From Eledone cirrhosa (lineage: Eukaryota): a DNA stretch of 64,000 nucleotides. Shown one piece after another: positions 2,446 to 37,814 of this stretch; within the stretch, counting starts at the first letter, position 1, and each line of letters begins with the position of its first letter. A program made the position numbers and the translations under genes. The stretch spans positions 13,082,001 to 13,146,000 of the forward strand of contig OZ024749.1 of assembly GCA_964016885.1 (NCBI GenBank). The letters run 5' to 3'. The notes below the pieces were generated by a model, which was not told the DNA's origin, did no database searches, and saw only the letters and a program-made list of their open reading frames with translations.

Positions 2446-2901
2446 GATATGGTAGCTACTCTTGGTAGATAACTGATTTAATAAATCAAGGATGTACGCA
2501 CATACACACATACATACACTCACACATACACATATATGTGCATATACACACGCACACACACATATATATATACACACACATATATATACACACATGCACG
2601 CACACATGTACACATACATGCATACACATATGCCCACAGATACACGCATACATGCATACATATATATATATATATACACACAAACATGCAATACACTCAC
2701 CCATAAACACAGATATACACACATACATACATACACACACCCGCACGCACACATATATATTTATATATAAATATATTACATAATTATTTATGAGCATACA
2801 CATACACACATGCTCATACACATACAAACACATACCATTTGCATTGTATATGTAAAATTCATATGAGCGCATACACATACAAGAAATTATTATATATATA
2901 T

Positions 2902-3097
2902 AACAAAGGAATTGTGGTAAGGAACCAGATGGACCATAACGCACCAGAGTACTCAATACTTAGGGTAGTAGAGAGGGAAATAGGAAAAAGTATGACCCCG
3001 ACGGCAGAGCTCAAGCCGTTTCGACGGCTATTTCTGAGTCCAGAAATTGCCGTCGAAACGGCTTGAGCTCTGCCGTCGGGGTCATACGTTTTCCTAT
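2902..3097. mobile_element. Small fold-back insertion of a hammerhead-bearing (PLE pLTR-like) family, between (TA)n tracts
   Basis: Inverted arms 2980-3036/3041-3097 carry the 3' half (GAAA-CGGC..GCCG-TC-GGGGT) of the hammerhead seen whole at 31399; the extra tail 2902-2979 also occurs at 14487-14537. Confidence 0.7.
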
Positions 3098-3660
<563 letters not shown>

Positions 3661-3879
3661 ACATACATGCATCCATACATACACACTGGTGCCTTTGAAA
3701 AGAGAAACGTTCAGGCAAAGAAGCAACATTAAATATCATCCAGGGTGTTCCAAAACATGTATACACATTTATTTGAATGCTATAGAAGTGTGTATACATT
3801 TTTGGGAGACACCCTGTATAATAGTAGGGAATAGCAAAATCAACAACCGAAATCCGGTTACATTGCACGCACTAAAGCT

Positions 3880-8340: not shown

Positions 8341-11300
8341 TCATTCCAAAGCCTCTGGATAAACAACATTCTTGGTTTTGCCCTGTGGTGTCACAATGAA
8401 GAGACAATCAGGGTTCCCAACCCTTGTTGTGCCAACATAGAGTTGACCATGCGAAAAGACAGGATCTGCCAGATTCAACCCAACGACTTTCAATGATTGC
8501 CCTTGAGATTTATTAATGGTCATGGCAAAACTAAGCCTGATCGGAAATTGAAGTCTTTGAAATTCAAATAGCAAATCAGTTGGTTTCAGAGGTATTCTGG
8601 GAATGAAACAATTGTCACCAGCAAATTTTCCTGACATGATTGCAACTTTTAGAACATTGGACATCATATTTTTGATGATGAGTATTGTGCCATAACAAAG
8701 TTTTGGAGGATCCAGATTGCGAAGTAGCATAACCGATGCTCCAAGCTTCAGTATCAGGTTGTGTGGAGAAATTCCCGCTTGTTCAAGACTGTTCAAAAAT
8801 TCAGTTGGATAGTTTACAACCTGGTCTTGAGAAGTGATTGTAGCATATTTTCTCTCCCGGTAACATCTCCAGCAGCCTTCTGTTGATTTCTTTCACAGCA
8901 ACATTTTTAGATGCTAAGATTGCTCGTTCACAGAGCCATTTCAGATCACATTGTCTGGTCTGAATGTTTGGAAACACTCTGGCAATCAGTTCTTGTTCTG
9001 TGTCAATGATATGGCCAAATGACAACTGAATATGGTCATTGGAGTCCTTTTCAAGAAGTCCATTTCCCAATTTAAGTAGTTGGATGGCAAACTCACTGAC
9101 ACCTTCGTCACCAGTTAAGTGCACTCGCATGTTGGTTGTAAGGCTCAGCAGCTGAAAGTGGGGCCAGAGATAGGATGTTTTCAGACAGGCATTGACCGGA
9201 TCAGCTCGAGTCCCTCGAAGAATTACAGGCTGTGTTTGTCTGAAATCACCAGCAAGAACCATTGTCACTCCTCCCATTATGCAACTATTTTCTCTCAGAT
9301 CCCTTATCGTCCGGTCCAAAGCTTCAATTGCTCCTTTATGGCTCATAGTAGCTTCATCCCAAATTATCATCTTGCATGTTTGCAGAAGCTTGCCCATGGG
9401 TGAGTTCTTGTTGATGTTGCAAAACGATTGTTCATGCCGTGTGAGATATATGGGCAGCTTAAACATGGAGTGTGCAGTTCTTCCTCCATCCAGAAGTGTT
9501 GCTGCAATGCCACTTGAAGCCACAGCAAGGGCAATATGTTGCTTTTGGTGAACCTTTGCAAGCAGGAGGTTTTTGAGGAATGTCTTGCCTGTGCCAGCAG
9601 GAGCATCGAAGGAGAAAAGTCCTCCCTTGTTATTTTGAATGTTTTCGATGATGATGTGGTGGGCGTATTTCTGGTCATCCATCAATCGAGGTTCATTTTT
9701 ATCCACAAACTTACGCAATGCTTGAATTTCGTAGTTTGTCTCCTGAAAAATGTCTTGTGCTACCTCCATTTCTTCATCTGGCTCTGGCCTCCCGCAGTTA
9801 GCTAATGTGCTATTCATTGCCTGAACTCGATGGGACAGGTGACAGAGAGCTTGATTGTAAATTCTGGGGGTATATTCCATATACATATTGCCATGATGAC
9901 TTCGGGCTTGGTGTTGATAGTGGTCCGACATATTGTTTTTGTACTCCTGCCAGAATAAATGAGCTTCATCAATTCCACATGCTGTGAACATAATAGCAAA
10001 TAATTGTCTTATTTGACTGGCTACTTGAGTAATTGCTGCTTCTTCTAGGCACTCACTTCTTCCAGTGTCCATTGTCATGCAGGAGTCCATGCTGTTTACA
10101 TGCTTCTTGGTATGTTGCGCACTCCCTTCCTCTGAAGCACCTAAGATCCTCAAAGGACGTTGGTCTTCGAACAGTATGCAGAAGTAACCGTAAATAAAAA
10201 CATTCTCTGTTGTTGGGATAGACATTGTAAACACGCCCAATAGCATCACTTGACTTGACTTCATGACCTTCCACTAAATGACCTTGCTTTCTTCGATTCC
10301 AGGTCTTGCAATTGGTCCAGGTGTAGTATGTTGGGACTTCAGCATATAGGAGGGATCGAGCAAATTCATCATTCTGGCAGAGTTTAAAGAAAGCAGTTAG
10401 TGTAGTGTCATGTGATGCTTGTGCCAACTGATGAGCAGTGATCTCAGTGAAGTACACTCTCTGTCCATTTTCCAGATGGACTGCGAGGTTGACCACTGTT
10501 GGGTGGCATTGATGGATATCAAATCCAAAGATTCGCCAGATAGCTTCATTGCTGGAGATGTATCGACCTGTTTGATACCGTTTCACCTCATCCAGCCCAC
10601 CATCATTGAGTTCTTTGTCAGTAATAAAAGTAGCCATGTCACTGCCCTTGTTGATATATTTTGTGACATATAGGATTGCCTTGACGGAGCTGCAATACTC
10701 AACATTGATATGAGCTTTTAAAAGTTTGCACAACAATTTGTTGTGTGGGACGACCCACTGATTGTTTATGGTCAGCTCCTCTCCTCGAACTGTTAGGCTT
10801 GCAGTATTGCCTCCATGTTCTGGTCTACGCCTACGATAAAGGGGGTATCCATTATTGTCAGTCCGAGTTTCCCGAATAAACGCTCTAGGATAATGTTTGC
10901 TGCATTTTTTATCTTTCATGCAGGGAGACGCTGGATTGATGACTCTACATGGACCATTAATGAGTTTGGACTTGATGGTTTCAAAGAGCTCTGGATCACC
11001 ACCTTTATCAGGCAACTCTGCTGAAATGATCTTATCAACATCATCTGGTCTTATCTTCTTCTTGCACCAGATTAGTGTGTGAGAGTGAGGAAGACCTCTC
11101 TTCTGCCACTCAATAGTGGTCATCCAAGCACTAAGCTCACCAAAGATTCTTCCTTCTTTTAGGAGCCAGATGAGTTTTTTTTTGCTTTTCATGGAAAACC
11201 CGAGCAATGAGGTCATGTCGATCCTTTGGTTTTTAATTTTGAATTGCATGTAAATGTAATGAAGAGATACGGCCGACGAAATTTTCTGACATAGGCCATT

Positions 11301-12725
11301 GCATCTTGCGTACGTTCATGCATGTAACGTGGTCCTCCAGTGAACCTTGATACTAGTATGACTGGCTGGCCAATATTTCTTGGGTCAACGTCAGAATTGA
11401 TGGCATCTCTAAGGTGGATGTAGTTATCTGCTCTCAACTTAGTTTGATTCCTTCGCAGAAAACCCAATCTTTATGTTTCAATTTTGGCATATATGTCCAC
11501 CATAAACTGGCTGGTTATTTCTTTGAATCGCAGAACTTGGTTGAAGTGATCACGTACCATGAAATGATAAGCATAGAATTATTTGCAACTGATTGATCGG
11601 TCAGTTTCTTGTCCCATTCCTAGGCTGATCTACCGTAGCTGAAAATGATATCCATCTTGACCATTCCAAAAGATAAGCAGATATTGGAGTGAATCTTAGG
11701 CTCTATGAGTTTCACAAATTCGCTCCAAATGTCCACTTTGTTTTTGTAAAACAATGCCACGTCATTCATGCTGTTCATCAACCATTATGATTGCAGCTTC
11801 ATCAGTGACAGGTGCATTGAATCTGCGTTCATGTTCTGAAGCTGGGCGTTTATCTGCCCTAATGATGATTTTACGATCTCTGGTGTTGTTCATATGCTCC
11901 AGTGCATATTTAAATATACTGACGTACATGTGATGTTGGTGAAGCATTTCTTGTAACTTTATGACTATGTAGAACTGCAATCCACCATGGACATTGGTAC
12001 ATCTTTGTTGTGCCTGTGTTTCATTTCCACCCATGAAGTAAACCTGCACAAATGTGTGAGGCTCCTGTGAAAGTGGCAGAAGGCCACCCATTAAGTGGTA
12101 ACACTGTCCCTGAATTTTATAAGTTGTACAGAATCTAATGTCAGTCACATTCCTGTCAGCCCCAAAAGATGTCATTTGAAAGGCATAATTATATTTTATG
12201 GTGTATTTATTGAAGTATCGTGCTTCTGGTGTATGCTGAAGGAGCAGATTCTTCAGAAATTCAGGAGGTTCTTGTATTGTTTTAAGGCTCACTTTGCCTT
12301 TTGAGCAGCATAGACTTGATGTTTCTGCTGTCCACATCTTGGCACCACAATACTGGCAGCATTTGTTCATTTTCCCAATGTTGATTTGTGGATTACTGCT
12401 GTAGTCCTTTTGGGGGTCATAAGAAAAAGTACCCATCAGTCAGTTCATTTTACTTGTGGCTTGTTCTCCTGCTCGGGCAGTAGAACGATGTGCTTGATTA
12501 GCTTTTCGTATGATTTGCTGTTGTTCCTTAATTTGTTGTTCTCGTGTAGCAGCAGTCCTTTGTTCCCTTGCATCCAAACGGTGTGCTCGTGCTAAAGCTA
12601 TTTGGGCTCTGTTAGCAGCTAGACGGGCATGCCGAACTTCTTCACTTTCTTCAGATCGCTGTTTTCTTTCTCTTAACCTCTGAAGATGACCTTCCGTATA
12701 ATGATCTGGAACGTTTCCTAGGCAT
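8341..12725 (-). pseudogene. Helitron Rep/PIF1-family helicase, broken by frameshifts and stops (pieces 12651-12725, 11762-12436, 11213-11467, 10053-11249, 8801-10264, 8341-8796)
   Basis: Rep motifs LFITFTCN, IEWQKRGLPHSH, YVTKYINKG; helicase motifs DAPAGTGKT, IIWDEATM, GDFRQ, QFPIRLSFAMTINKSQGQSL, FSHGQLYV; N-terminal CQYC..CC. Confidence 0.95.
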
Positions 12726-12752
12726 TTGAAGTGATATTATTACACACCACAC

Positions 12753-14222: not shown

Positions 14223-14996
14223 ATCTCTCCTATCCCTCACTCTCTTATCTGCAGACTGCAGAACATAAAAAAAAAAAAAATGAATGATCTCTTTTGATAT
14301 TCATTAGAAAATAAGATAAATTGAATTTAAATGAATTCCTTGCTTTGCAAAGTAAAACATTTTCGACCGTTACCTGTCCGAGTGTATAGTGAATATGTAC
14401 AGGTAATTTTGAGAAGTTTGGTCCGGTAGTTTGCTAGTTTTAGGCAGACACAGAATCGTAAACTTGCATTTATATATATATATATGTACTTTGGTGCGTT
14501 ATGGTCCACCTGGTTCCTTACCACATTTCCTTCGTTATATATATATAGAGATAGAAGATATATATATACGGCGGGAGAGAGAGACATAGCGAAGAAGAGA
14601 GAGAGAGATTATCTCTGTAACTATTCGTCGATATATGTATATACATGTATGTAGGTATATTGTGTATAGTGTTCTGTTAGATAACATAGCAGTAACTATA
14701 TCTAACTATCTATATATATATATCGGTTATTATATTGTAAGCAGAAGCTGTTAAATGTCACTGCTGACGCTGTTGCTGCTGTAATTCCTGACAGATATTT
14801 TCTTTCATCCTACAAGTCTTAACTCCATTAACAGGAAAACATGATGGAGGAATTATCATACTTCATATGACAGTAATGGCTTGTTTATTTAACGAAATTT
14901 GAAGTCTACAGCGTCCATCTAATATGCAAACAATTCCAAAGTATTATGTTCGATACAGTTGATGTAATATATATATATATAAATATACATACATAC

Positions 14997-15405
14997 ATGG
15001 TGGCTGACAACTCGTTTTCGAGTACGGCCACTACTTTATATCCATGTAGGAGAACCCCTACCGATGCGCTGAACGAGTGTGACTTTTTAATCCAGCCAGA
15101 GACTTGAAAACTCTGGTACAAATACTACACTTGTGAGAATTACTGACACATAGTGCTGGGCCCATGGTACCGTGTGACGACAAGTGCAGAGAGATCTCCA
15201 GACATAAAGCAATGCCTGTGCGGTGAAGCTTTTATAGTGAGCAAAGGCACTGCACAAAGCCAGTCCCTCTCTCTTAACCAAGATGATATTTACCAAAAAG
15301 AAGAACAGGTCAACATCATTGGATACCATCAGGGTTGCAGATGTTATATCAGAGTTTTCCTTCTCCTAGAATTCTGTCTTGACAAAGGCTAAGGGGTCAT
15401 CTCTC
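14997..15405 (-). mobile_element. Non-autonomous RTE-derived element, 5'-truncated copy 1
   Basis: High identity to 15691-16303; flanked by (ATAC)n. Confidence 0.85.
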
Positions 15406-15690
15406 ACATACATACATACATACATACATACATACATACATACATACATACATACATACATACATACATACATGCGAAACATAGACAGAAATAACAATGG
15501 AAACAACACAATACAATGAAAATATATATTAGTTTTAGGCTTAATACGGTAGGATAAGCGTCTTTACATTTCGGACATTTTAATCCTTTATCAGGAGATA
15601 AAATAAAAGATACAGATGAAAGGGGAAATACAGAGAAGAAGGAACAGAAAATATGTATGTATGTATATATGTATATTTATATATATTTAT

Positions 15691-16303
15691 GTCAGGTCAC
15701 CAGTTGGTGCTACTGGTAACATGTATCCCAGTACAACCTGTCCCATGGTCGGGTCGTTGGCGACTAAACTGGCAACTCCACCAAGGTTTCTTGGTGAGGA
15801 GGGTGACTTTGGACATCCTGCAGGACTAAAAACAAAACCTGTCAAAGGGCAAAGGAGCTCTTAAGAGTCAATGGCCATCCAAATTCACCGGGAGAGATGA
15901 CCCCTTAGCCTTTGTCAAGGCAGAATTCTAGGAGAAGGAAAACTCTGATATAACACCTGCAACCCTGATGGTATCCAATGATGTTGACTTGTTCTTCTTT
16001 TTGGTAAATATCATCTTGGTTAAGAGAGTGGGACTGGCTTTGTGCAGTGCCTTTGCTCACTATAAAAGCTTCACGGCACAGGCATTGCTTTATATCTGGA
16101 GATCTCTCTGCACTTGTCGTCACATGGTACCATGGGCCCAGCACTATGTGTCAATAGTTGTCACAGGTGTAGTGTTTGTACCAGAGTTTTCAAGTCGCTG
16201 GCTGGACTAAAAAGTCACACTCGTTCAGCGCATCGGTAGGGGTTCTCCTACATGGATATAAAGTAGTGGCCGTACTCGAAAACGAGTTGGCAGCCACCAC
16301 CAT
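15691..16303 (+). mobile_element. Non-autonomous bipartite RTE-derived element (~610 bp), full-length copy 2
   Basis: RTE-5'UTR-like motif CTAGGAGAAGGAAAACTCTGA; 3' part encodes CSVCTRVFKSLAGLKSHTRSAHR* (C2H2 finger like those at RTE ORF ends); terminal stem-loop CTCG-AAAA-CGAG; 5 copies in window. Confidence 0.8.
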
Positions 16304-17065: not shown

Positions 17066-17663
17066 AGCACTGAGTTATTTAATTTGTTGATTATCCAACA
17101 ATTTAATTTATTACAGATTAGACGCACTCAATAAGAACTCAACAAGAACTTAATCTTGTGATTTGAAGTTTTCTTCACTATTCAAATAGAACTCACAACG
17201 TTAAATTCTTGTCTGAATATGTCACTATCTGTAAACCAACTTTTGTATTTTATCTGATGAGAGCGTACCAAAATGTTGGTACCCTTCAAACATATAATAA
17301 AATAAATATGGTTTTGCAAAGATAGCTTCCATTTATTAATATTATTTCTGAAGACAGTATATATATGTGTAGGTATGTATATTCCCTCTGATAGTTTGTA
17401 AAAACTTTACATAGATCTATATGATATACATACCAACACAAACATATATATCCTAGAAACGATCGTAAAATGATGAATTTTTTAATATAAGGAACTGTTT
17501 CTTTGTTTTTATTCATTATTTTTATTAATTCATCTTGACTCTGTTTTCCTGTATTTTTCATCGGAAAATTTTTTCTTTGCATACATCTTCTCTTTTCATG
17601 ATATTCGGATTACATCGAGTTTTTCATACGGATTAGACACTACCGGACATTTTGGTAGATTTA

Positions 17664-18151
<488 letters not shown>

Positions 18152-18223
18152 CATTATGAAGAGAGAAGAAACATTTAGATATAATTAGTAATAAAATGTA
18201 TCATACCTAAACTGTTCCTAAAT

Positions 18224-18311
18224 TCCTCGACTACGTAGTTTCGTGGCATAAACAAAAACAATATATCAAAGATATAGAGTCCTTGCGAGGTCTGCCGACT
18301 TATCAAGAGGA
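18224..18311 (-). ncRNA. Type I hammerhead ribozyme, U3-A8 core (copy 1)
   Basis: Reverse complement of 19091-19178. Confidence 0.8.
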
Positions 18312-18814
18312 TACCTCATTTTACTAGTCTCAAGAACGCGTCTACACGACGTGAGAAAGAATCCCAAAAGGCGGAGGGGGAGACAGTCACGCGATATAAC
18401 GGTCGAGAAACAGAGCTAAGCCTCTTATAACCACGAAGAAAATACCACAGAGGCGGAGGGGGCATTCATATCGAGGCCGTAGAAGAGGTAGTGAAGAAGG
18501 CGAGAAGTATGAGTAATGGAAGCTTTCCAGTTGTCCCCACACTTCAAATATTGCTCGACCAGAGGGAGTTATTAATATATTTAGAAACACACAGATACAT
18601 GCGGACACACACATATATACATGAATGCATCCGCACCCAACTGCGAGTTAAGGGTGCCAACTTCACCGATGTTGCTCAATGAATGACTGGGACAGACCAA
18701 TTCAGTTTGAACCAGACTGAACCAGTATCAGAGTTAAAAATACATTATGAAGAGAGAAGAAACATTTAGATATAATTAGTAATAAAATGTATCATACCTA
18801 AACTGTTCCTAAAT

Positions 18815-18902
18815 TCCTCGACTACGTAGTTTCGTGGCATAAACAAAAACAATATATCAAAGATATAGAGTCCTTGCGAGGTCTGCCGACTTATCAAGAG
18901 GA
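18815..18902 (-). ncRNA. Type I hammerhead ribozyme, U3-A8 core (copy 2)
   Basis: Same as copy 1, 591 nt away. Confidence 0.8.
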
Positions 18903-19090
18903 TACCTCATTTTACTAGTCTCAAGAACGCGTCTACACGACGTGAGAAAGAATCCCAAAAGGCGGAGGGGGAGACAGTCACGCGATATAACGGTCGAGAA
19001 ACAGAGCTAAGCCTCTTATAACCACGAAGAAAATACCACAGAAAATACCACGTCGTGTAGACGCGTTCTTGAGACTAGTAAAATGAGGTA

Positions 19091-19178
19091 TCCTCTTGAT
19101 AAGTCGGCAGACCTCGCAAGGACTCTATATCTTTGATATATTGTTTTTGTTTATGCCACGAAACTACGTAGTCGAGGA
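19091..19178 (+). ncRNA. Type I hammerhead ribozyme, U3-A8 core (copy 3)
   Basis: Stem I TCCTC/GAGGA; core TTGATAA; stem II GT(C)GGCA/TGCCAC; GAAA; palindromic stem III CTACGTAG; GUC site, predicted cut after 19173. Confidence 0.8.
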
Positions 19179-19409
19179 ATTTAGGAACAGTTTAGGTATG
19201 ATACATTTTATTACTAATTATATCTAAATGTTTCTTCTCTCTTCATAATGTATTTTTAACTCTGATACTGGTTCAGTCTGGTTCAAACTGAATTGGTCTG
19301 TCCCAGTCATTCATTGAGCAACATCGGTGAAGTTGGCACCCTTAACTCGCAGTTGGGTGCGGATGCATTCATGTATATATGTGTGTGTCCGCATGTATCT
19401 GTGTGTTTC

Positions 19410-19450
<41 letters not shown>

Positions 19451-19651
19451 AATAATAAATTTGAAGACTAAAATCCAAAGAGGGCTCGATAAGGATAAAT
19501 ATATATCAAATATATAAGAACCGTAGAGCAAATATTTTAATCTGTTGTTTTAATAAATCTGTTAATAAATTTGTTATTTTAATAAATATATATATATATA
19601 TATATATATACGATATTAAACAAATGGAAACTATATTTATAAAACCATATT

Positions 19652-19717
19652 TATTTCATTATATATATTTCAGGGATACCATATTAAAAATATGGTATGC
19701 CTTCCTCAGACAAAATA
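19652..19717 (-). ncRNA. Minimal type I hammerhead in the PLE 3' repeat (sense to ORF)
   Basis: Reverse complement of 23476-23541. Confidence 0.8.
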
Positions 19718-21247
19718 CAATATATAAACCGTTTTATAAATAAATTTGACATACCTAGAACAGTGCAACTTCCATTTAAAAAGTTGATTTGGTAGTGAAA
19801 ATGTTGAGGACAGTTAAAAAGAAGGACGAAGAGAAAAAAGAAAAAAAAAAAAGAAAAGAAAAAAGAAGAGAAGAAGAAAGAAAGTGTATAGCGCTAAGGA
19901 CAGTTAGAGAAGAAGATGAAGAGATGTATGCAAAGAAAGCAACAGAGCGAGATAGAGAGAAAGAGATATGGGAGAGAGAAATATATTGAGGGAGTGAAAA
20001 ATGATAGGCAGCTTGGAGACAGATGATCAGCGTACAAATGAGATATTAAGGAGGGATGGGGGTACTGTAATTATTTATTTATTTATTTATTTAGTTATAG
20101 TGTTAAGGATACGGAGAGAAATATGATAAATAAAGAGAGGTAGAGAGAGATATATGTGGTGGGAGAAAAGAGGTAGATCGAGTAATATCTATCATACGAG
20201 GTGGGAGAGATACAGTTAAAAACAGCCGATATATAAGTCCCGTCAAGTGTAGAGGAGAAAAAGAAAGAAAGATGATATATTTAAAATATATTTAAAATAT
20301 TATGTCTCGTCGATTTGAATTATCAATTCATATGCATTAGGTATTACAATGTAGATATCAATATTCATGAATGAGACACATATCAATAATGTGTGAAAAA
20401 TGAAAAAATAATGACCCCATGTTTAGTTTAAAAATTCTTAGGTTTATAAGCAAAATTTGAGATAAAACTTCAAAAATACTGAAATACATAAGTATATATG
20501 TATTTTCATGAAAAAAGAAAAAGAGAAAAGAGAAGGTTATCTCAAATTCAAGTTGACAATTATGGACACACATGTGAATTTACGTGATCGGCTCTGTAAA
20601 ATCATATTTTCATGAAAAGCTTCATTGCGTTACAAAAGATTCCACCATACATATATGTACATACATATATATATAGACATAAAATGTACATTAATATTAA
20701 TAATAATATTCTTGCCCTCACTTACATGATTATCGTTCAAGCATAGAATAGACAACAGATATCAATACATTAAAAATATATTAAAAAATATATTAAAAAA
20801 TATACTAAAAAAATATATTAAAAATGCCAAGAATATCTTCGTCACTCCACTGAGTAACTAGGGACGCAATAAAACATAGTATGCCACGCATATCAACCAC
20901 AGAAAACCACCCTTCAAATTTATTTGACAATATATTGAGTTCATTAGAAGCAAATTTATTTGACAATATATTGAGTTCATTAGAAGCAATCATAATCAAA
21001 AGTAAACTAAACCAAAATTATTCAACAAACCTTATTTAGCAGAAATCATTCAAAAAAAATTTATTCTACAAATGCTCTTATATTTATTATAGAAGTTTAT
21101 CTAGCTTAAAAATTTATTCAATAGATTGGGAACATCACCATTATAGGGTACTTTAATTAATCTTATTAATTTATATACTCATGCAGAAGGTTTTAAAAAA
21201 ATTAACCGGCAAGTTTCATAAATAGTTAAATATCTTAAGTAAATATA

Positions 21248-22200
21248 CTACATTTTAAATTTATATTTATATCTAAAAGTTGAGTTCAATCTATGTCTGC
21301 AGCAGCTGAATAAATTGGTCCGTAAATTAAGTGAATTTTTAGATTTTAGTATAAAGAATATCTCCTCCGCGCAGAGGTCACATGTCTCAGAAGAGGAATT
21401 AAAAGGAATCCCTTTTGAGACTATATTCCAAACCATCGAATATCCAACGTTATCATGTTTAAGTTGCCAGAGTAAACCTGATAGGGATGTTGAAGATTTT
21501 TTACTTGGATCCGTGAAAGAATTCTTGTGATTATTATAGCGAAGTTTAAATTCTGTCGAGGTGGAACCAACATAATTAAAAGAATTTAAGTCAGTTTTAA
21601 CATTACAGTTGTATATTATATTTTTAACTAAGCAATTGTTATTTAGCGGACATTTAGATCTATCTCTACAGTTACAGTTGTTTACTTGAATATTGTTTAG
21701 GCTATTTTCGGTATTTTGGCTAGGTTTTAGATTCCTATTATTTATTCTATTAATATTTTGTGCTAAATTTTTGGTGGCCGAGTATGTTAATTTTATGGTA
21801 TGTCTATTGAAAATTGAGTGATACTTATGTGTTCTAGGGAAGCGTTTGTCAAGAGCATTAAAAAATAGTTTAGCGATGTGGGTTTTAATGTTTAGTAAGA
21901 AAGGGGGGGGGGGGGGGGCAAACCATATTATATTTCTAGTTCTATTTCTTTTCTGGTTTTTGGAATTATTGTAATGCTTTCTATTATAGTTGTTAAAGTT
22001 GTTACTGTGATTAAAATTGTTGTAATTTCGGTTAGTTTGTCTATTATCGATGTACATAATTTTATCAGTATATCCTGCTCTAGCTAACGCATCATTGTAA
22101 TACTGGGCTTTTTCGTCGAAAATATTTTTATTAGATGAGATTCTAGAGATACGTTTTTGAACAGAGTTCACTATAGTATTTTTGACAGATCTGGGGTGAT
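21248..22200 (-). CDS. C-terminal part of a PLE polyprotein (RT thumb, Cys linker, GIY-YIG endonuclease), 5'-truncated
   Basis: NHPRSVK..KRIS..SS; WFAPP..F; CNC..CPL...C; NIIY..YVGST..FKLRYNNH; CDLC..E..LN..CRH; frame open to the inversion junction at ~22200. Confidence 0.88.
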
Positions 22201-23475
22201 TAGATCTGGGGTGATTAGTTTACTTTTGATTATGATTGCTTCTAATGAACTTGACAATATATTGTCAAATAAATTTGAAGGGTGGTTTTCTGTGGTTGAT
22301 ATGCGTGGCATACTATGTTTTATTGCGTCCCTATTTACTCAGTGGAGTGACGAAGATATTCTTGGCATTTTTAATATATTTTTTTAGTATATTTTTAAAT
22401 ATATTTTTTTATATATTTTTAATGTATTGATATCTGTTGTCTATTCTATTCTTGAACGATAATCATGTAAGTGAGGGCAAGAATATTATTATTAATATTA
22501 ATGTACACTTTATGTCTATATATATATGTATGTACATATATGTATGGTAGAATCTTTTGTAACGCAATGAAGCTTTTCATGAAAATATGATTTTACAGAG
22601 CCGATCACGTAAATTCACATGTGTGTCCATAATTGTCAACTTGAATTTGAGATAACCTTCTCTTTTCTCTTTTTCTTTTTTCATGAAAATACATATATAC
22701 TTATGTATTTCAGTATTTTTGAAGTTTTATCTCAGATTTTGCTTATAAACCTAAGAATTTTTAAACTAAACATGGGGTCATTATTTTTTCATTTTTTCAC
22801 ACATTATTGATATGTGTCTCATTCATGAATATTGATATCTACATTGTAATACCTAATCCATATGAATTGATAATTCAAATCGACGAGACATAATATTTTA
22901 AATATATTTTAAATATATCATCTTTCTTTCTTTTTCTCCTCTACACTTGACGGGACTTATATATCGGCTGTTTTTAACTGTATCTCTCCCACCTCGTATG
23001 ATAGATATTACTCGATCTACCTCTTTTCTCCCACCACATATATCTCTCTCTACCTCTCTTTATTTATCATATTTCTCTCCGTATCCTTAACACTATAACT
23101 AAATAAATAAATAAATAAATAATTACAGTACCCCCTTCCCTCCTTAATATCTCATTTGTACGCTGATCATCTGTCTCCAAGCTGCCTATCATTTTTCACT
23201 CCCTCAATATATTTCTCTCTCCCATATCTCTTTCTCTCTATCTCGCTCTGTTGCTTTCTTTGCATACATCTCTTCATCTTCTTCTCTAACTGTCCTTAGC
23301 GCTATACACTTTCTTTCTTCTTCTCTTCTTTTTTCTTTTCTTCTTTTTTTTTCTTTTTTCTCTTCGTCCTTCTTTTTAACTGTCCTCAACATTTTCACTA
23401 CCAAATCAACTTTTTAAATGGAAGTTGCACTGTTCTAGGTATGTCAAATTTATTTATAAAACGGTTTATATATTG

Positions 23476-23541
23476 TATTTTGTCTGAGGAAGGCATACCA
23501 TATTTTTAATATGGTATCCCTGAAATATATATAATGAAATA
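23476..23541 (+). ncRNA. Minimal type I hammerhead in the inverted PLE repeat
   Basis: Stem I TATTTTGT/ATGAAATA; CTGAGGA; stem II AGG(C)ATACCATATT/AATATGGTAT(C)CCT; GAAA; palindromic TATATA; AUA site. Confidence 0.8.
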
Positions 23542-23668
23542 AATATGGTTTTATAAATATAGTTTCCATTTGTTTAATATCGTAAACCTACTCCAAAACC
23601 TGTTGAGTGCTTTTATATCAGTTATAAAATATTTACTCGTTGTAACCCTACAATTTTAAATAAAACTT

Positions 23669-23709
<41 letters not shown>

Positions 23710-24274: not shown

Positions 24275-24397
24275 GGAGGTGAGTTTTATTGTAGTACAAT
24301 AAAGCAATGCAGATATCGGATAAGAAGCACTCTACAGTTTGTAGGACTGGAGTATGCATAATATAAGATCAAAAGATGGTTAAAGGAGTTCCATGTA

Positions 24398-24464
24398 TTT
24401 TATTATGCGCATTTCAAAAACAAACATCATCATGCAATAATATTTGTGTTTTCATCAGATAAAA
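24398..24464 (-). ncRNA. Minimal type I hammerhead (mirror copy)
   Basis: Reverse complement of 24585-24651. Confidence 0.8.
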
Positions 24465-24584
24465 CAGGAGAACATGATATGAAGGCTAAAAAACACTTGT
24501 GGATAGTGCAGTTTTAAATCTACATGTAGATTTAAAACTGCACTATCCACAAGTGTTTTTTAGCCTTCATGTCATGTTCTCCTG

Positions 24585-24651
24585 TTTTATCTGATGAAAA
24601 CACAAATATTATTGCATGATGATGTTTGTTTTTGAAATGCGCATAATAAAA
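24585..24651 (+). ncRNA. Minimal type I hammerhead
   Basis: TTTTAT/ATAAAA; CTGATGA; stem II AAA(C)ACAAATATTAT/ATGATGTTTGT(T)TTT; GAAA; palindromic TGCGCA; AUA site. Confidence 0.82.
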
Positions 24652-24702
24652 TACATGGAACTCCTTTAACCATCTTTTGATCTTATATTATATATATATA
24701 TG

Positions 24703-25070
24703 TATAACCAACGATTAATATGGTTCATTGATTACTCAATGAATATAGTTTTACAATAGATTAAAAGCACTCTACACGGAAAAGATTTCTGGAGTTATTA
24801 ATATTCAGAATATTAATAAATTAAGTCATTCACATAATCAAAATATATGTTTTATTAAATATATTTCGAAGGTACTGTGCTGTTTTGTCAGTACGTCCAC
24901 GTCAATACTGGAATTGAAGCATGAAGACCGTTGTAGTATGTCATACATCAATTCATGTATTTTATCTGACGAGGACGTACTGAACAAACAGTACAGTACC
25001 TTCGAAATATATATAATAAAACATATATTTTGATTACGTGAATGTCTTGATTTATTATTATTTTGAATAA
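24703..25070. mobile_element. Older inverted pLTR-like pair (same family as 48250-48490)
   Basis: The reverse complement of 24703-24915 matches 48335-48490 and, in part, 24966-25070. Confidence 0.7.
24960..25021 (+). ncRNA. Minimal type I hammerhead
   Basis: TTTTAT/ATAAAA; CTGACGA; stem II GGA(C)GTACTG/CAGTAC(C)TTC; GAAA; TATATA; AUA site. Confidence 0.8.
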
Positions 25071-25087
25071 TATATATATATATATAT

Positions 25088-26172: not shown

Positions 26173-26654
26173 ATGGTGGTGGTTGCCAACTCGTTTTGGA
26201 GTACGGCCACTACTTTATATCCATGTAGGAGAACCCCTACTGATGCGCTGAACGAGTGTGACTTTTTAATCCAGCCAGCGACTTGAAAACTCTGGTACAA
26301 ACACTACACTTGTGACAATTATTGTCACATAGTGCTGGGCCCATGGTACTATGTGACGACAAGTGCAGAGAGATCTCCAGACATAAAGCAATGCCTGTGC
26401 GGTGAAGCTTTTATAGTGAGCAAGGGCACTGCACAAAGCCAGTCCCACGCTCTTGACCAAGATGATATTTACCAAAAAGAAGAACAAGTCAACATCATTG
26501 GATACCATCAGGGTTGCAGGTGTTATATCAGAGTTTTCCTTCTTCTAGAATTCTGCCCTGACAAAGGCTAAGCGGTCATCTCTCCCGGTGATTTTGGATG
26601 GCCATTGACTCTTAAGAGGTCCTTTGCCCTTTGACAGTTTTTGTTTTTAGTCCT
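26173..26654 (-). mobile_element. Non-autonomous RTE-derived element, 5'-truncated copy 4
   Basis: Homology to copy 2. Confidence 0.85.
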
Positions 26655-29024: not shown

Positions 29025-30041
29025 CTAAGGCGGGTAAAATTCCCGAGATCCATGGACGAGTTCTCTCCAGCGGTCTCTGTCCCTCATTATCGCTGCCATG
29101 TCCTGCGTCTCCAACAGACCAGTGTCTGTCCTTAGGGCATCAACATATGTTAACCTTGGTCTTCCTCTTCCAGTGTGTCCATGTAGGGGCTCCCAAAGGA
29201 GCACGGAGTGCAATGTCAACTCTGGATGTCGGTGAGCATGTCCAGCCAACCTCAGTCTCCTCTGTGTCACTTTTGAGCTGACTTTTGGGAGGCTCCCATA
29301 CAGCTCTGAGTTTTTCATCCTCAGTGTATACTGATTAATGTTCAGAGCCATCCTCAGCATTCTCGTGTAGCACCCATCCACCATCTGAGTGAGTCTCTTG
29401 GTCAGTGTCCAAGTCTCAGACCCATACAGCAGCACAGACTCCACTACAGCAATGAAGAGGCGGATTTTCAGGTCTCTACGAAGGTCCGACTTCCACACCG
29501 ATCTCAAGCTGTGGCACGCTGCCCAGGCCTTGCTCTTCCTCTCAACCACATCATCTTCCGTATTCCCAATCTTTGCTCCCAAATACAGGAAGTCCTCAAC
29601 CAATTCCAGCGGCTTCCCGCCTACATTAGTGATCCCCTCTGGCTTCTCAACATTCTCTACCAGATATTTTGTTTTAGTCTCATTCATTCTCAGCCCCACA
29701 CTCATCGACACAGTCTCAACCTCCCGCATCAAATCCTCTGCCTCCTTCACTGTATTTGTCACCAAAACTATGTCGTCGGCAAATTCAGCATCCGATACCT
29801 TTTTCGCCCCAACTCTCCTGCTCTGAGCCGGTGCTACAGTAAAGCCAGAGTCCTGGTGTTTCTCCAGTGCAAGGCGCATACAATAGTCCACTACGATGAT
29901 AAAAAGGTAGGGAGCCAATGTATCTCCCTGGAGCACTCCAGCCAGTATCTCAAAGAACTCTGTCATCCCATCAGGTGTAATGACTTGGGCTTTGGTGTTG
30001 GTGTAGAGCAGTGATATCAGGTCCACTATCCTCTTGGGGAT
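29025..30041 (-). CDS. RTE-type reverse transcriptase, C-terminal portion (uninterrupted, truncated)
   Basis: GVLQGDTLAPYLF, FADD, FLYLG, LLYGSETWTL, GRGRPRLTY, DRDRWR. Confidence 0.9.
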   Translation of the reverse strand: MPKRIVDLISLLYTNTKAQVITPDGMTEFFEILAGVLQGDTLAPYLFIIVVDYCMRLALEKHQDSGFTVAPAQSRRVGAKKVSDAEFADDIVLVTNTVKEAEDLMREVETVSMSVGLRMNETKTKYLVENVEKPEGITNVGGKPLELVEDFLYLGAKIGNTEDDVVERKSKAWAACHSLRSVWKSDLRRDLKIRLFIAVVESVLLYGSETWTLTKRLTQMVDGCYTRMLRMALNINQYTLRMKNSELYGSLPKVSSKVTQRRLRLAGHAHRHPELTLHSVLLWEPLHGHTGRGRPRLTYVDALRTDTGLLETQDMAAIMRDRDRWRELVHGSREFYPP

Positions 30042-30058
30042 AGTGGACCTGATATCAC

Positions 30059-30366
30059 AGTGCCAAAGAAGGGAGATCTCTCTAACACCAACAACTACCG
30101 GGGGATCTCACTGACGTCACTTGTGGCAAAGACCCTCAACAGGATGATTCTTAACAGGATCCAGCCTGAGATGGAGAAGAAGCTCAGGGACAACCAGAAC
30201 GGCTTCAGAGAGGGTAGATCAACCACCAGTCACATCTTGATGCTGAGGAGGATATTAGAGGGAGCTAGAGCAAAGTGCCTTCCTGCGGTCATGGTTTTCA
30301 TTGACTTTAGGAAGGCCTTTGATTCTGTGGACCGTTACTGCCTGATGAAGATCTTACAGGCTTATG

Positions 30367-30370
<4 letters not shown>
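30059..30370 (+). pseudogene. Inverted upstream RT segment of the same RTE element
   Basis: PKKGDL..NYRGISL..NQNGFR..FIDFRKAFDSV..LQAYGI continues directly into IPKRIVDLIS on the minus part. Confidence 0.9.
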
Positions 30371-30414
<44 letters not shown>

Positions 30415-31398
30415 ATACTTTGGGAGGGTCATGTTGCCAATAAGAAACACACGCACCAGTTGCTTTCACTTCAATTTATTATAATAAATTTATAATAAAT
30501 TTATAAATTTATAAATTTCTGGTTGGTTGGTTGGTTCCACAACCAGATAGTTGGTCATATATTGTCATAGTTCTTTCGTCACACACTCTGTGACCTCTTC
30601 AGTGACTGGGGATTCCTTTCTTTGTTTTTGTGCCTCTCCTTTGTTCTGTCCTACGCCGTTTTGTTTCTGTGTGTGTGTTGTGTGCTCAGTCTACACATGC
30701 GCCACATCCGGGTGTCTGTGTGTGTTTATGTTCATTTATTTATTTGTTTATTTACATGTTACTGGTTGGTTGTTTGTTCTATGTGTGTGTGTGTTTTCAT
30801 TTTGTCCTTAATTGTAAGTTGTGATGTTGCTGTTCCACTCATATTTTCTATTTAAATTTTGTTGTAATTCTTTTATGTTTATTGCCTCTGTGATTTGTCT
30901 AAACATTTTGGCCCCATTTGTTGACCCGTCACCGTATCATTTACGTACTTATACCTCTTAAAAGGGTCCTTGCCTATTCTGTCCCACCTAGTTCATTTAC
31001 TTATTTCGTTATTTCTTTATTTCTTCCTTTACTTCTTTCTTTCTTTCTTTATTTATTTATTCTAGCCTAACAATAGCTAGAGACCTAGGTCGTAGAACTT
31101 GCTTTACTTTTTTCTTTACACTTATCCGCTTTTCTTCACTCTCAGTATTTTTTTTTTCATATATATTTTTACCCCCCATTGTTCTACCTACCGTTCCGAC
31201 TTCCTCCCCCTCCCCCTCCCCAGTATCTTCTTTGACCTCATGCCCAGCTGTAGCTGGCACTACCAACGCTTGATTGGGTCTACTCCACCCCCTCCCCTCT
31301 TTCTCCTACTGGCAGGCTTAGCCACCATCTCCCCTACTAATTTGCAACCACAGAATTACTACTGATTTTTGACAATCACTTTGACCATATATGGAATT

Positions 31399-31492
31399 AC
31401 CCCTTGAGAAGATCGGCTATTTAAATACCAGGATAAATTTTCATTTAGTCCAGAATTAGCCGTCGAAACGGCTTGAGCTCAGCCGTCGGGGT
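31399..31492 (+). ncRNA. Type I hammerhead ribozyme, U3-A8 core, stable stem III
   Basis: ACCCC/GGGGT; TTGAGAA; stem II GA(T)CGGCTA/TAGCCGTC; GAAA; stem III CGGCT/AGCCG; GUC site, predicted cut after 31487; followed by (TA)n. Confidence 0.8.
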
Positions 31493-32225
31493 CTTACTGG
31501 TTCCTATATATATATATATATATATATAAATTTATAGATTCAGAATAGTGGGCATACAGGACAAGGACAATGGAAACAACAATGGAAATGGATGGACTCT
31601 CCTTCGTAGGGGATGGTCAAGGGTTCGCCAAATATTGTTTGCTATGACTTATTTAGTATTTAAAAGACAGAGAATATGTCAAGGTGTACAGTTGATTTAC
31701 CAAACAACCTGCATAAATGATTTTTCACATTATATACATACACACATATACCTGTACAGATACATATTTTCATACATGCATATAAACACACATACATACA
31801 TAGATACATACATACATACATACATACATACATACATACATACATACATACATACATACATACATACATACATAGTTTCATTCATACAAATTACAAGTAC
31901 AATCCATTAATAGAACAGTAAAATGTAAAACATTCCACAAATTTTGCATCTAATAACTGCATATACACATGTACAAACACAAAGCATATACAGATGCACA
32001 CATACAACTCAAAACATACACATCCACACATACAATAACATACATATCTACACATGCTTGCAGACATGCATACATAATCTACCTAGTTGATGTTGTGTAA
32101 ATTCCAATGATAGAGTCTTGTGTCTATGTTAGAAACCGACTCTCTCCCTATTGGTAAAACTTTGTGAAATTATAAAACCAGAACATACATATATACATAC
32201 ATACATACATACATACATACATACA

Positions 32226-34365: not shown

Positions 34366-37300
34366 CTACAGGCGCATGATCAGAGTAGGCCCACTCACGC
34401 GGGCCATTCTCGCCACATTCACCCACCTTTCAGTAAATGTACTGGGGGGCAGCACTTCTCTCTCCACCCTCACCTTCCTTTCCAAGTGAAACTTGAAGAA
34501 GTTGATGAGGGATTGGCCGAAGAGAAAAGTGTCTGTCTTCAGTCCTTTCAACCTGGTCCACCATGCAACCTCTTTCGCTACTGCCACCAGGCAGAGGAAA
34601 ATTGCCTGCCCTTCCTGACCAAAAGAAGGCGGCGGGTCAATCTTCACTATGGACTCGGACGATAGCCGGATCCGTTCTACACGCGACAATAGCTGTTCGA
34701 CATAACCCCACAAGTCAGCAATGCACGGACACTGGACGAGTGCGTGCAGAACGGTTTCGTCGCTCTGCGCGCATCTCGGGCAGGTTCGTCTGACAGCACT
34801 TCCGTGCCTGTAGAGTTTATCCCGAACCGGCAGCGCCCCCCGGTAGCACTGCCAAGCGAGGGATTTCTGGAAGTTATCCATCGTCCCCGGCTCGAAAGTC
34901 CTCCGGAACATACTGGTCAGTTCTACTTCGTTGACGCCCAGAGCCTCTCCTAGTACGTCATCGCACTTGCCCTCCACTAATCCTCTATAGAAATCTTGAG
35001 TGGAAGTTCCACTGACCGCATTGCCCACCTTGCAGAGTGCAGTGAGCGCCTGGCAACATTCCAGATGCCAGTCGCCCAGTCTCGGTCTCTTCTTGACCCA
35101 GGACTGCAGCTCAGTCAAAGAGATGAGCTGCGGAAAGGCCCGTCTAACAAACGGCGACCACACCTGTTCACCGTTTAGGCAAAATATCTGGAGATGTCGC
35201 AGCCTCAGCGCATGTCTGCGCATCATTAGCCACGGCATGCCCAGCCCTCCACGAAGAGGGTGCTGGCAGCAGATGGACCGCCTCACCAACGGGACCCGTC
35301 CCCTCCACAAAAATTTGAAAAGGAGCCGTTCCAAATTGGCGAGGCGTGGACGGGGGCAAGGCACGACGGTCAGGCGGTAGTAGATGACGGACGCGATGTA
35401 CGCGTTCGCCACCTCCGCCCGCCCTTTCAGTGATAGCTTTCTCTCAGCCCATTTCTGGGTGAGGTTGGCTATCCTGCTCGTCACCTCGTCCCAATTCTTA
35501 TCCACCTGGAGGTCTGGTCCGAACCAAACCCCGAGCAACTTTACCGGTCCGTCTGTCCAGCGCCCAACGACGCTGTTGGACGGCATGGACTTGCCTCTCC
35601 AGGTGCCGAGCTGCAAGCCCACCGACTTTTCCGGGTTAAGTTTTGCTCCCGTCAACCTTTCATATTCCTCCAAATGGGTGCGGATCACCTCGATTTCCGA
35701 GGTGTCCGACACCATCACGGTGATGTCGTCCGCATAAGCGGACGCAGCCTTTCTACGTCCCGGTTCGAGCGGGATGCCCTGCAACAACTCCAGCTTCCGC
35801 AGTAGAGGCTCAAGAGTCAATACGTACAGAAGTGAGGAGAGAGGGCACCCTTGACGGACCGATCGAGAGATCTGAAACGGTTCCGAGAGGTGGCCATTAA
35901 CTTTGACCACCGAGCGGATGCCGCTGTACATTGCAGCGATCCAGCTTCTGAAGACGGGGCCGAAGCCAGCCGCCTCGAGGACAGCCTCCAAGTACCGATG
36001 GTCGACCCTATCGAATGCTTTCGATTGATCTAAATTGATCAGAGCCCCACCGAAGCCAGGTTTGCACCCAACCCTCTCTATGATGTATCGCATGAGGTGG
36101 AGGTTGTCGTGTATGGACCTGGTCGGGATTGCGCAAGTTTGCGCCTCCCCAACCAAATCTTTGACGACAAGCGCCAACCTTTTCGCTAACACCTTGGCCA
36201 AAATCTTAAACTCTGTGTTGAGCAGGGTTATGGGCCTGAAATTATCTAGTGTGTCCCTCTTGTTCTCGTCTTTCCTTATCAGCGTCACTACGCCACGGCT
36301 CACAGAACTGGGAATGCTCCCGTTCTGCTGCCAGTTGCAGTAGAGCGCTTCGAGGAGATCGGAGAACAAGTCTGGCATATTTACGTAAAGCTCGTAGGGC
36401 AGACCATCCAAACCGGGTGACTTGCGACTCGAGCAGCCGACAAGGGCGTCCTGAATTTCGGCTGATGTTATCGGCTCTTCGCAGCGCTCAGCGTCGGCCG
36501 TCGAGAGGCGTGGCAAGCCGTCGAGGTAGGGACTGAAGTCCGCCGCCGTCTCCGACTCACCCATCCTCCCGAACAATCGAGCAAAGTGCTGGCGAAAGGC
36601 CTCACACATCTGCTTGGAATCGCTCAGTTCGTGTCCATCTCGATCCGTCAAAGACCGAATTGTGGTTTTATTTCCACGCTGCGTCTCTGCAAAGCGAGCC
36701 CATCGGGCAGCTTTGGTTCCCTCGTTCCTCAGAGCACGCGCCTTAGCTCTGACAATGCAACCTTCGTGTTTCGCATTGAAGAAATGGTCTAGTGCCATTC
36801 TCGCCGCTAGCACGTCTGTTGCAATGCCACTACAAATAGCCTCGTCTAACTTAGCTATCAGCCCCTCCTCCTTTCTATTTTTCTCTATTGCTACTTCTTT
36901 GCTAAATCCTATCGAGGTTGCTCTAATCTCTCTTTTGAGTGCCCCCCACCACCTGTTGTTGACAACCCCCCCTGTCAACTTTTGCTTAACTAAGTTGTTG
37001 ACCCGGTCCCTGTAAGCTTTACGTGCCGGAAACGACATGTTTAGCTTCCAGTAGCTAGGTCCTAACCTACGTGTCTTATCTAGGTCGACCATACAGATCA
37101 CAAGCTTGTGATCTGAATAGGCAACCGTTTTAAAATGTGGACATCCTACACTATTTCTATCTCTTTTCCTAATGAAAATCCTATCTATGTACGATCTAGA
37201 TGACCCTATGCGATTGGTCCAGGTCCATACTGGCGCATTAGGGAAATCTAGTCGGTACCTGTCAGACAGTTGAAACTGGCTGATCAGGTACTTGAGGCTT

Positions 37301-37785: not shown

Positions 37786-37814
37786 GCTGGCAGGATGAAT
37801 GGGAGAGGAAAGGT

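What the first reader, a model, noticed from the sequence alone, without database searches (positions are those of the whole stretch)
2980..3097. Palindromes folded back inside hammerhead stem II: footprint of cDNA self-priming
Seen: compared with the intact ribozyme at 31399, this hairpin keeps stem II (GACGGCTATTT..GCCGTC), GAAA, stem III and the tail. Where the core TTGAGAA should precede stem II, the sequence continues as the reverse complement of GAAA and everything downstream. The same geometry appears at 58543-58645 and probably at 49957-50106 (GAAA-GCA..TGC-TT). Inference: reverse transcription stalls in stem II, the cDNA snaps back on the ribozyme's own hairpin and primes second-strand synthesis. 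The ribozyme structure would then define the inversion breakpoints.
Basis: partly seen in the sequence, partly recalled or inferred. Interest (0 to 1): 0.7.

Follow-up and report, generated by a model that had tools for sequence, protein, structure and literature searches.

The report
Head-to-head Penelope retroelement end stub
The hairpin is a tiny, mirror-image leftover of the end of a Penelope-type jumping gene, a known kind of insertion; copies of this family do tend to stop inside one loop of their self-cutting RNA motif, but that spot looks more like the start of the copied RNA than a place where the new DNA folded back on the motif's own stem.

Summary
The palindrome is real (arms 55 of 57 identical, 4-nt spacer), but the unit is 2900-3097 and lopsided: one arm carries an 80-nt tail, the other runs into (TA)n. 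This is the published insertion form of Penelope-like elements (PLEs): inverted 5'-truncated copy, one-sided tail, hammerhead in the terminal repeat; self-priming was proposed for it in 2013. (1) Native stem II is not kept: the left half is the reverse complement of the 3' arm; the native 5' arm and about 27 nt of loop are missing. (2) 49957 holds a whole hammerhead in one arm, and only 2 of 7 such hairpins in the window turn inside stem II. (3) The tail-less arm reaches further 5', which simple snap-back cannot give. What survives: in this family 5' ends pile up at 31443-31457 (5 of 7 window arms; 9-fold depth step in whole-genome contigs). That edge coincides with a TATA-like box at -29 and an initiator-like motif. 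Best reading: two target-primed cDNAs, one running off a transcript start in loop II, joined end to end. The genome-wide axis map was not obtained.

The parts
2900..2979 (-). 80-nt one-sided 'tail' continuing the inverted arm, ending in (TA)n
   Evidence: homologous to the tail after the right arm of 58543 and to 14486-14538; the same tail is the loose-end consensus behind 31507 in 4872 and 5154 reads, agreement 0.94-0.95
2980..3036 (-). inverted arm: 3' half of the hammerhead (stem II 3' arm, GAAA, stem III, cleavage triplet, stem I 3' arm); its 5' end equals reference position 31451
3037..3040 (+). 4-nt spacer; sense sequence equal to reference 31447-31450, i.e. the first four bases of the direct arm
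3037..3097 (+). direct arm: same 3' half of the hammerhead (GAAA 3055-3058, cleavage triplet 3075-3077), starts at reference 31447, short end running into (TA)n
31399..31492 (+). intact reference type I hammerhead of the family: U3-A8 core 31404-31410, stem II 31411-31464 with long loop, GAAA 31465-31468, stem III with palindromic loop, cut site after 31487; copy ends short at 31507
31418..31450 (+). TATA-like heptamer at -29 (31418-31424) and initiator-like hexamer (31445-31450, A+1 = 31447; a second match puts A+1 at 31443) inside stem II 5' arm / loop II: candidate core promoter
   Evidence: both motifs together at 4 of 66405 unmasked positions; motifs recalled, test made after the fact
46886..46937 (-). 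solo family copy, 5'-truncated in the stem II 3' arm (about reference 31456), short end
58540..58725 (.). second, older hairpin of the family from another subfamily: short inverted arm 58540-58584, 20-nt spacer, direct arm from 58605 with long tail
14486..14538 (+). tail-only fragment of the family between (TA)n runs
49956..50190 (.). hairpin of a different family: complete hammerhead-like motif 50033-50083 in the tailed arm; short arm ends in the core; axis not in stem II
19609..23670 (.). large head-to-head insertion of another family with the same layout; carries the C-terminal 323 codons of a GIY-YIG PLE-type ORF (21248-22219, minus) and hammerheads at 19652-19717 and 23476-23541

Best explanation
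2900-3097 is a minimal insertion of the hammerhead-bearing end (pseudo-LTR plus tail) of a Penelope-like element into a (TA)n tract. Shown: head-to-head layout, one-sided tail, (TA)n flanks, both arms cut inside loop II, family-wide 5' edge near 31443-31457. Inferred: the PLE protein nicks both target strands and primes two cDNAs, one from the outer (tail) start site and one from the inner start site; their 3' ends are then joined, which gives head-to-head arms with a tail on one side only and lets either arm reach further 5'. [quoted passage not shown] The ribozyme's fold is then a bystander, not the primer. Rough odds by step: PLE-type insertion 0.9; real 5' edge in loop II 0.75; two cDNAs rather than snap-back 0.55; edge is a transcript start 0.4.
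For: Layout: 7 of 7 head-to-head hammerhead pairs in the window have one arm running into (TA)n and the other continuing into non-simple sequence; that continuation is matched by an independent copy in 4 (2980, 58543, 49957, 24799), weakly in 1 (19609, 68%), unmatched in 2. Same form in PMC3846280 and PMC8557442. A purified PLE protein cuts AT-rich DNA, extends both strands and starts at two internal sites that bound the tail (PMC11167929). Which arm reaches further 5': tail-less arm in 3 of 7 (2980 by 4 nt, 24799 by about 64 nt, 19609 by 1.2 kb), tailed arm in 2 (49957, 18570), equal in 1 (24358), unclear in 1 (58543). Edge: 5 of 7 family arms in the window end within 31447-31462; summed contig depth in X1 rises 9.2-fold from 31442 to 31456, in X5 3.4-fold; one opposite-strand joint at 31449/31450 in X23; an X1 joint lands on 31447; 449 X23 reads have loose ends before 31447 whose consensus ends in the inverted tail (read by eye). 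Promoter-like pair at 31447: 4 of 66405 positions; PLE transcripts start inside the terminal repeat (PMC2377424).
Against: No RNA data show a start at 31447; the promoter motifs were looked for after the edge was seen, in an AT-rich genome, and the one mapped PLE promoter is TATA-less. Part of the depth step comes from a subfamily with a different loop II (loose ends before 31457: 103 contigs, 1373 and 1515 reads, the reads with a shared upstream, agreement 0.65-0.71), and divergence of the reference alone gives a 3.5-fold drop on the 3' side. Counted by locus, 3 of 5 in 16 nt is weak (P 0.04-0.33). Only 1 opposite-strand joint (3 reads, one run) was listed among 38720 laid records of four runs, so the axes were not mapped. 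No autonomous element of this family was found. Snap-back followed by trimming of one tail gives the same products.
Confidence: 0.5

Rival explanations
1. Structure-induced stop. The polymerase copies the 3' arm of stem II; the displaced RNA 5' arm re-pairs and peels off the cDNA end, which is then free to join a second cDNA or the target, or to fold back on one or two bases. The ribozyme sets the 5' edge, though not by the first reader's route.
For: Ends cluster along the stem II 3' arm and just above it (31447-31462). In two other families one arm ends in the core just past stem II (49957, 24799).
Against: Native stem II is modest (-9.3 kcal/mol). Several pointers name one base, 31447, four bases into the loop. 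In 5 of 7 window hairpins at least one arm passes the whole hammerhead.
Confidence: 0.25
2. One reading: cDNA stalls in stem II, snaps back on the ribozyme's own hairpin and primes the second strand.
For: 2 of 2 hairpins of this family turn in the stem II region; arms share private variants; a cDNA run to 31411 would fold on stem II (-13.6 kcal/mol for the whole cDNA); self-priming is proposed in PMC3846280; 24358-24691 is a perfect fold-back with no spacer.
Against: Native 5' arm and loop are missing from the 2980 centre; cDNA stopped at 31447 or 31451 has no 3' hairpin on stem II; the tail-less arm leads at 2980; 49957 is not an example; 2 of 7 overall.
Confidence: 0.1
3. Snap-back of a free, tailed cDNA on a short chance microhomology at its 3' end, then endonuclease trimming of one tail during integration.
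For: Arms nearly identical and from one subfamily; PMC8557442 ascribes the tail to endonuclease resolution of an intermediate; explains tail asymmetry in 7 of 7.
Against: PMC11167929 maps the tail to two polymerase start sites rather than to trimming. No microhomology at the 2980 joint against the reference copy.
Confidence: 0.12
4. One amplified MITE-like founder, or an assembly fold-back artefact.
For: The 2980 locus itself was not checked in reads; two other window pairs are 99-100% identical between arms.
Against: Both arms of 58543 share states absent from both arms of 2980 and the reverse; spacers differ (4 and 20 nt); a third joint at 31449/31450 in X23; arms of 2980 differ at 2 of 57 sites and the unit is asymmetric.
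Confidence: 0.03

Closest known systems
Insertions of endonuclease-bearing Penelope-like elements with an inverted 5'-truncated pseudo-LTR and one-sided tail (PMC3846280, main text read; PMC8557442, passages)
   Same: Head-to-head arms, palindrome at the joint, tail on one arm, (TA)n target, self-priming already proposed.
   Different: Here both arms are only 57-61 nt plus tail, the tail is about 80 nt rather than 30-40, and the 5' ends of the family pile up inside loop II.
PLE hammerheads with U3-A8 core and opposite-strand pairs, Schistosoma Cercyon type (PMC4209133, parts 1-2 of 4 read)
   Same: Type I, U3-A8 covariation, long helix II with an unpaired base near its 5' end, short helix I, palindromic loop III; motifs lying close together on opposite strands.
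   Different: Stem III is long (5 or more pairs); in the hairpins only 3' halves remain, so they cannot form the ribozyme in cis.
PAc (Anolis Poseidon) in vitro system (PMC11167929, main text read)
   Same: AT-rich target, two start sites bounding a tail just downstream of the hammerhead, extension of both target strands.
   Different: The parts read do not treat the inverted joint or 5' ends of short copies; the link to head-to-head joints is my inference.
L1 twin priming (recalled, not read)
   Same: Two primings on opposite target strands give a 5' inversion.
   Different: L1 arms do not overlap and start at a poly(A) end; here arms overlap to make a palindrome and use two fixed internal starts.
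Animal non-LTR retrozymes (10.64898/2026.07.22.740005, part 1 of 5 read)
   Same: Short non-coding type I hammerhead units derived from PLE terminal repeats.
   Different: Retrozymes are head-to-tail arrays of complete hammerheads; these are head-to-head half hammerheads.

Membership tests
Endonuclease-bearing PLE insertion | Inverted 5'-truncated copy adjoining the 5' end (head-to-head) | tested here: met
Endonuclease-bearing PLE insertion | Tail on one end only | tested here: met
   80 nt at 2900-2979; family-wide in reads
Endonuclease-bearing PLE insertion | Type I hammerhead in the terminal repeat | tested here: met
   descriptor match at 31399-31492; no Rfam match at E up to 10; cleavage not tested
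Endonuclease-bearing PLE insertion | AT-rich / (TA)n target | tested here: met
Endonuclease-bearing PLE insertion | Target-site duplication | tested here: inconclusive
   both flanks are TA microsatellite
Endonuclease-bearing PLE insertion | Linked RT plus GIY-YIG ORF for this family | tested here: inconclusive
   none next to any family copy in the window; a different family with the same layout has a GIY-YIG-type ORF fragment (Atlas 0.95-0.97 to GIY-YIG/HTH_animal clusters; no significant Pfam match); no genome held
Fold-back on native hammerhead stem II | Native 5' arm and full loop II kept at the palindrome centre | tested here: not met
Fold-back on native hammerhead stem II | Tailed (template) arm reaches furthest 5' | tested here: not met
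   tail-less arm leads at 2980 and in 3 of 7
Fold-back on native hammerhead stem II | Axes enriched at stem II genome-wide | tested here: inconclusive
   2 of 2 in this family, 2 of 7 over all families in the window; 1 joint in reads
MITE from one founder | Copies share one joint and one set of arm variants | tested here: not met
Non-LTR retrozyme | Head-to-tail array of units with complete hammerheads | tested here: not met
Pol II core promoter in loop II | Capped RNA 5' ends at 31443-31447 | not testable with these tools
   sequence motifs only

The most novel reading that the evidence does not exclude
In this PLE family the core promoter lies inside the hammerhead's stem II / loop II, so the transcript begins with only the 3' half of the ribozyme and cannot cut its own 5' repeat in cis. 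Reverse transcription from the two tail start sites of that first repeat runs off after about 60 or 140 nt, and a protein dimer joins the two cDNAs head to head. This would explain the one-sided tail, the head-to-head orientation that Arkhipova et al. could reconcile only with an antisense template, and the large excess of half-hammerhead stubs.
Probability: 0.25. Interest if true: 0.62.

Novelty: new member of a known kind. Interest (0 to 1): 0.36.

Why it matters
How PLEs make their inverted 5' copies is unresolved in the papers read: self-priming on an antisense template was the 2013 proposal. These stubs turn that into a count that any long-read assembly allows: which arm leads, tailed or tail-less, and where the 5' ends fall. 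A promoter inside the ribozyme would also suggest how a PLE keeps its hammerhead from cutting the transcript's 5' end. As a sequence feature it is ordinary transposon debris.

Tried and rejected
No whole genome is held, so no census of copies. Rfam: the best 150 of 289 matches over the window held no hammerhead family; 0 matches on 31340-31505. Exact-pattern scans: 0 loci in metagenome contigs and viral contigs. Run search: no RNA holder listed; not evidence either way. RAD read ends at 31342, 31395, 31398, 31439 and 31454 sit on AATT sites of the reference and were set aside as restriction cuts, as were the RAD loose ends at 31453-31454 (possible ligation chimeras) and at 31443 (cause unclear). 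The 24799 row used a wrong split point and was redone. One descriptor row (21804) and one (51140) were dropped as chance-looking. Earlier-findings look-ups by place, by sequence and by the first word set were empty. Pfam gave nothing significant for the ORF fragment. Literature searches listed no paper, by title or abstract start, that ties PLE inversion axes to stem II, invokes twin priming for PLEs, or places a promoter in loop II; subscription papers (for example the 2005-2006 PLE reviews) and all supplements were not seen and may cover these points.

Full report
Observation. 2980-3097 is a palindrome whose arms (2980-3036, 3041-3097) agree at 55 of 57 positions around a 4-nt spacer; it folds at -106 kcal/mol, and 0 of 200 shuffles do as well. 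The arms are 89-91% identical to the 3' half of a type I hammerhead at 31399-31492. That motif has a U3-A8 core, a variant reported for Schistosoma PLEs (PMC4209133); it is a descriptor match only, Rfam gives nothing there, and cleavage was not tested.

The unit is larger than reported. The left arm continues for 80 nt (2900-2979) as an inverted tail, while the right arm stops at 3097 and runs into (TA)n. The same tail follows the right arm at 58543 and stands alone at 14486-14538, and it is the loose-end consensus behind 31507 in 4872 and 5154 raw reads of two runs carrying the same species label as the best holder. An inverted 5'-truncated copy, a tail on one side and a microsatellite target are the published form of PLE insertions (PMC3846280, parts 1-4 of 5 read; PMC8557442, 12 of 18 passages). 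The 2013 paper already infers self-priming from such palindromes and notes that head-to-head orientation would need an antisense template.

Stem II is not kept. Native stem II (31411-31464) has an unpaired T and about 30 nt of loop. The 2980 centre has neither; its left half differs at 1 of 14 letters from the reverse complement of the native 3' arm and pairs three bases further than the native 5' arm could. The long loop is not private to 31399: 6 of 16 contig pieces shown (of 9285) cross it, and no loop deletion is among the 12 of 15 indels shown or the 2 joints listed. So the inverted arm ends at reference 31451 and the direct arm begins at 31447. A cDNA that snapped back on the native hairpin would have had to copy the 5' arm and loop; a cDNA stopped at 31447 or 31451 has no such hairpin at its end. 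A short-loop subfamily too divergent to be laid is not excluded.

Other hairpins. The window holds seven head-to-head hammerhead pairs from six families. At 49957 the tailed arm contains a whole motif (50033-50083, one core change) and the other arm stops in the core, so it is not an example of the claim. Turning points: inside stem II / loop II in 2 of 7 (2980, 58543); one arm in the core in 2 (49957, 24799); both arms upstream of the motif in 3 (24358, 18570, 19609). The 19609 pair encloses a 323-codon ORF fragment that resembles GIY-YIG clusters in the Atlas at 0.95-0.97 (no significant Pfam match), which ties the layout to a PLE-type protein in this genome, though not for the focal family.

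Which arm leads. Simple snap-back copies arm two from arm one, so the tailed arm must be the template and reach furthest 5'. The tail-less arm leads in 3 of 7 (2980 by 4 nt, 24799 by about 64 nt, 19609 by 1.2 kb), the tailed arm in 2 (49957 by 18, 18570 by 104), they are equal in 1 and unclear in 1. A purified PLE protein nicks AT-rich DNA, extends both strands and starts at two internal sites that bound the tail (PMC11167929, parts 1-2 of 4). Two target-primed cDNAs, one per start site, joined at their 3' ends, account for orientation, one-sided tail and either arm leading. This is inference; snap-back with later trimming of one tail gives the same products. In run X23, 449 reads have loose ends before 31447 whose consensus (agreement 0.5) ends in ten letters of the inverted tail (compared by eye): a tail-only arm joined to a full short arm, as two primings predict.

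Independent origin. Both arms at 58543 share states that both arms at 2980 lack, and the reverse; spacers differ; X23 shows a third joint at 31449/31450 (3 reads, 3 starts). One founder is unlikely.

The 5' edge. Of 7 family arms at 5 window loci, 5 end within 31447-31462, one is tail only, one reads through. For 7 independent arms this has P 0.0002-0.02 by range assumed; by locus (3 of 5) P 0.04-0.33. In whole-run contigs of organism A (X1, 9039 laid) summed depth rises 9.2-fold from 31442 to 31456, and 31465-31479 is 34 times 31420-31434; organism B (X5, 21 laid) gives 3.4 and 12. Against this: depth is no copy number, divergence of the reference gives 3.5-fold on the 3' side, and a subfamily with another loop II adds to the step. 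For that subfamily the X1 consensus of 103 contigs loses the shared upstream ten letters before 31457, i.e. at 31447, while 1373 and 1515 RAD reads keep it. RAD ends at AATT sites were discounted.

What sets the edge. Position 31447 is the A of an initiator-like hexamer with a TATA-like heptamer 29 nt upstream; both occur together at 4 of 66405 unmasked positions of the window (motifs recalled, tested after the fact). The D. virilis element starts transcription inside its upstream repeat, from a TATA-less promoter (PMC2377424, 12 of 16 passages); TATA and initiator-like motifs are noted in rotifer repeats. If the RNA starts in loop II, copying from the first repeat runs off after about 60 or 140 nt, which fits the excess of half-hammerhead stubs. 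The rival is release of the cDNA end by re-pairing of stem II.

Verdict. A real feature of a known kind. Searches listed no paper on stem II axes, PLE twin priming or a loop II promoter; closed papers and supplements were not seen. Interest 0.36.

Noticed in passing
window 18149-19423: Three copies of another U3-A8 type I hammerhead (18224-18311 minus, 18815-18902 minus, 19091-19178 plus): a partial tandem plus an inverted copy, arms 370 of 370 identical; the two minus copies appear to begin within a few bases of the same site.
   Followed up: partly
window 24358-24691: Perfect fold-back (166 of 167, no spacer) with hammerheads on both arms, axis about 66 nt upstream of the core; the best local candidate for true snap-back.
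   Followed up: partly
window 24700-25072, 48271-48518, 17243-17342: Minimal-hammerhead family: a hairpin with a 2-nt overlap at the joint, a tailed solo copy whose match begins at the same base as the hairpin's direct arm, and a more distant relative.
   Followed up: partly
window 19436-19586: Remnant of the 49957 family: long tail joined to about three stuttered copies of an 18-nt inverted end, nested between two other PLE-type ends in one (TA)n tract.
   Followed up: partly
window 46699-46743 (minus): Small U3-A8 hammerhead candidate unrelated to the focal family, 150 nt from the 46886 copy.
   Followed up: no
window 34366-45582: Two head-to-tail copies, 5803 nt apart, of a non-LTR retrotransposon with 654-codon and 1150-codon open frames (endonuclease plus reverse transcriptase by eye); near-identical, so young or an assembly duplication.
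   Followed up: no
window 8341-12736 (minus): Broken Helitron-like Rep/helicase frames (named from recalled motifs, no search run).
   Followed up: no
window 29025-30443 (minus); 14998-16299: RTE-like reverse transcriptase fragment interrupted by a microsatellite; and a 408-nt inverted pair (96%) of another repeat with further copies near 26266 and 32358.
   Followed up: no
window 2900-2945 (minus) and 14500-14538: The tail holds a short ATG-started frame; two of three differences between the two copies there are silent by eye, but the 58543 tail has a stop. Could be the start of the element's ORF, as in the Anolis element.
   Followed up: no
window 3734-3823, 30011-30058: Two further small palindromes without hammerhead features.
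   Followed up: no
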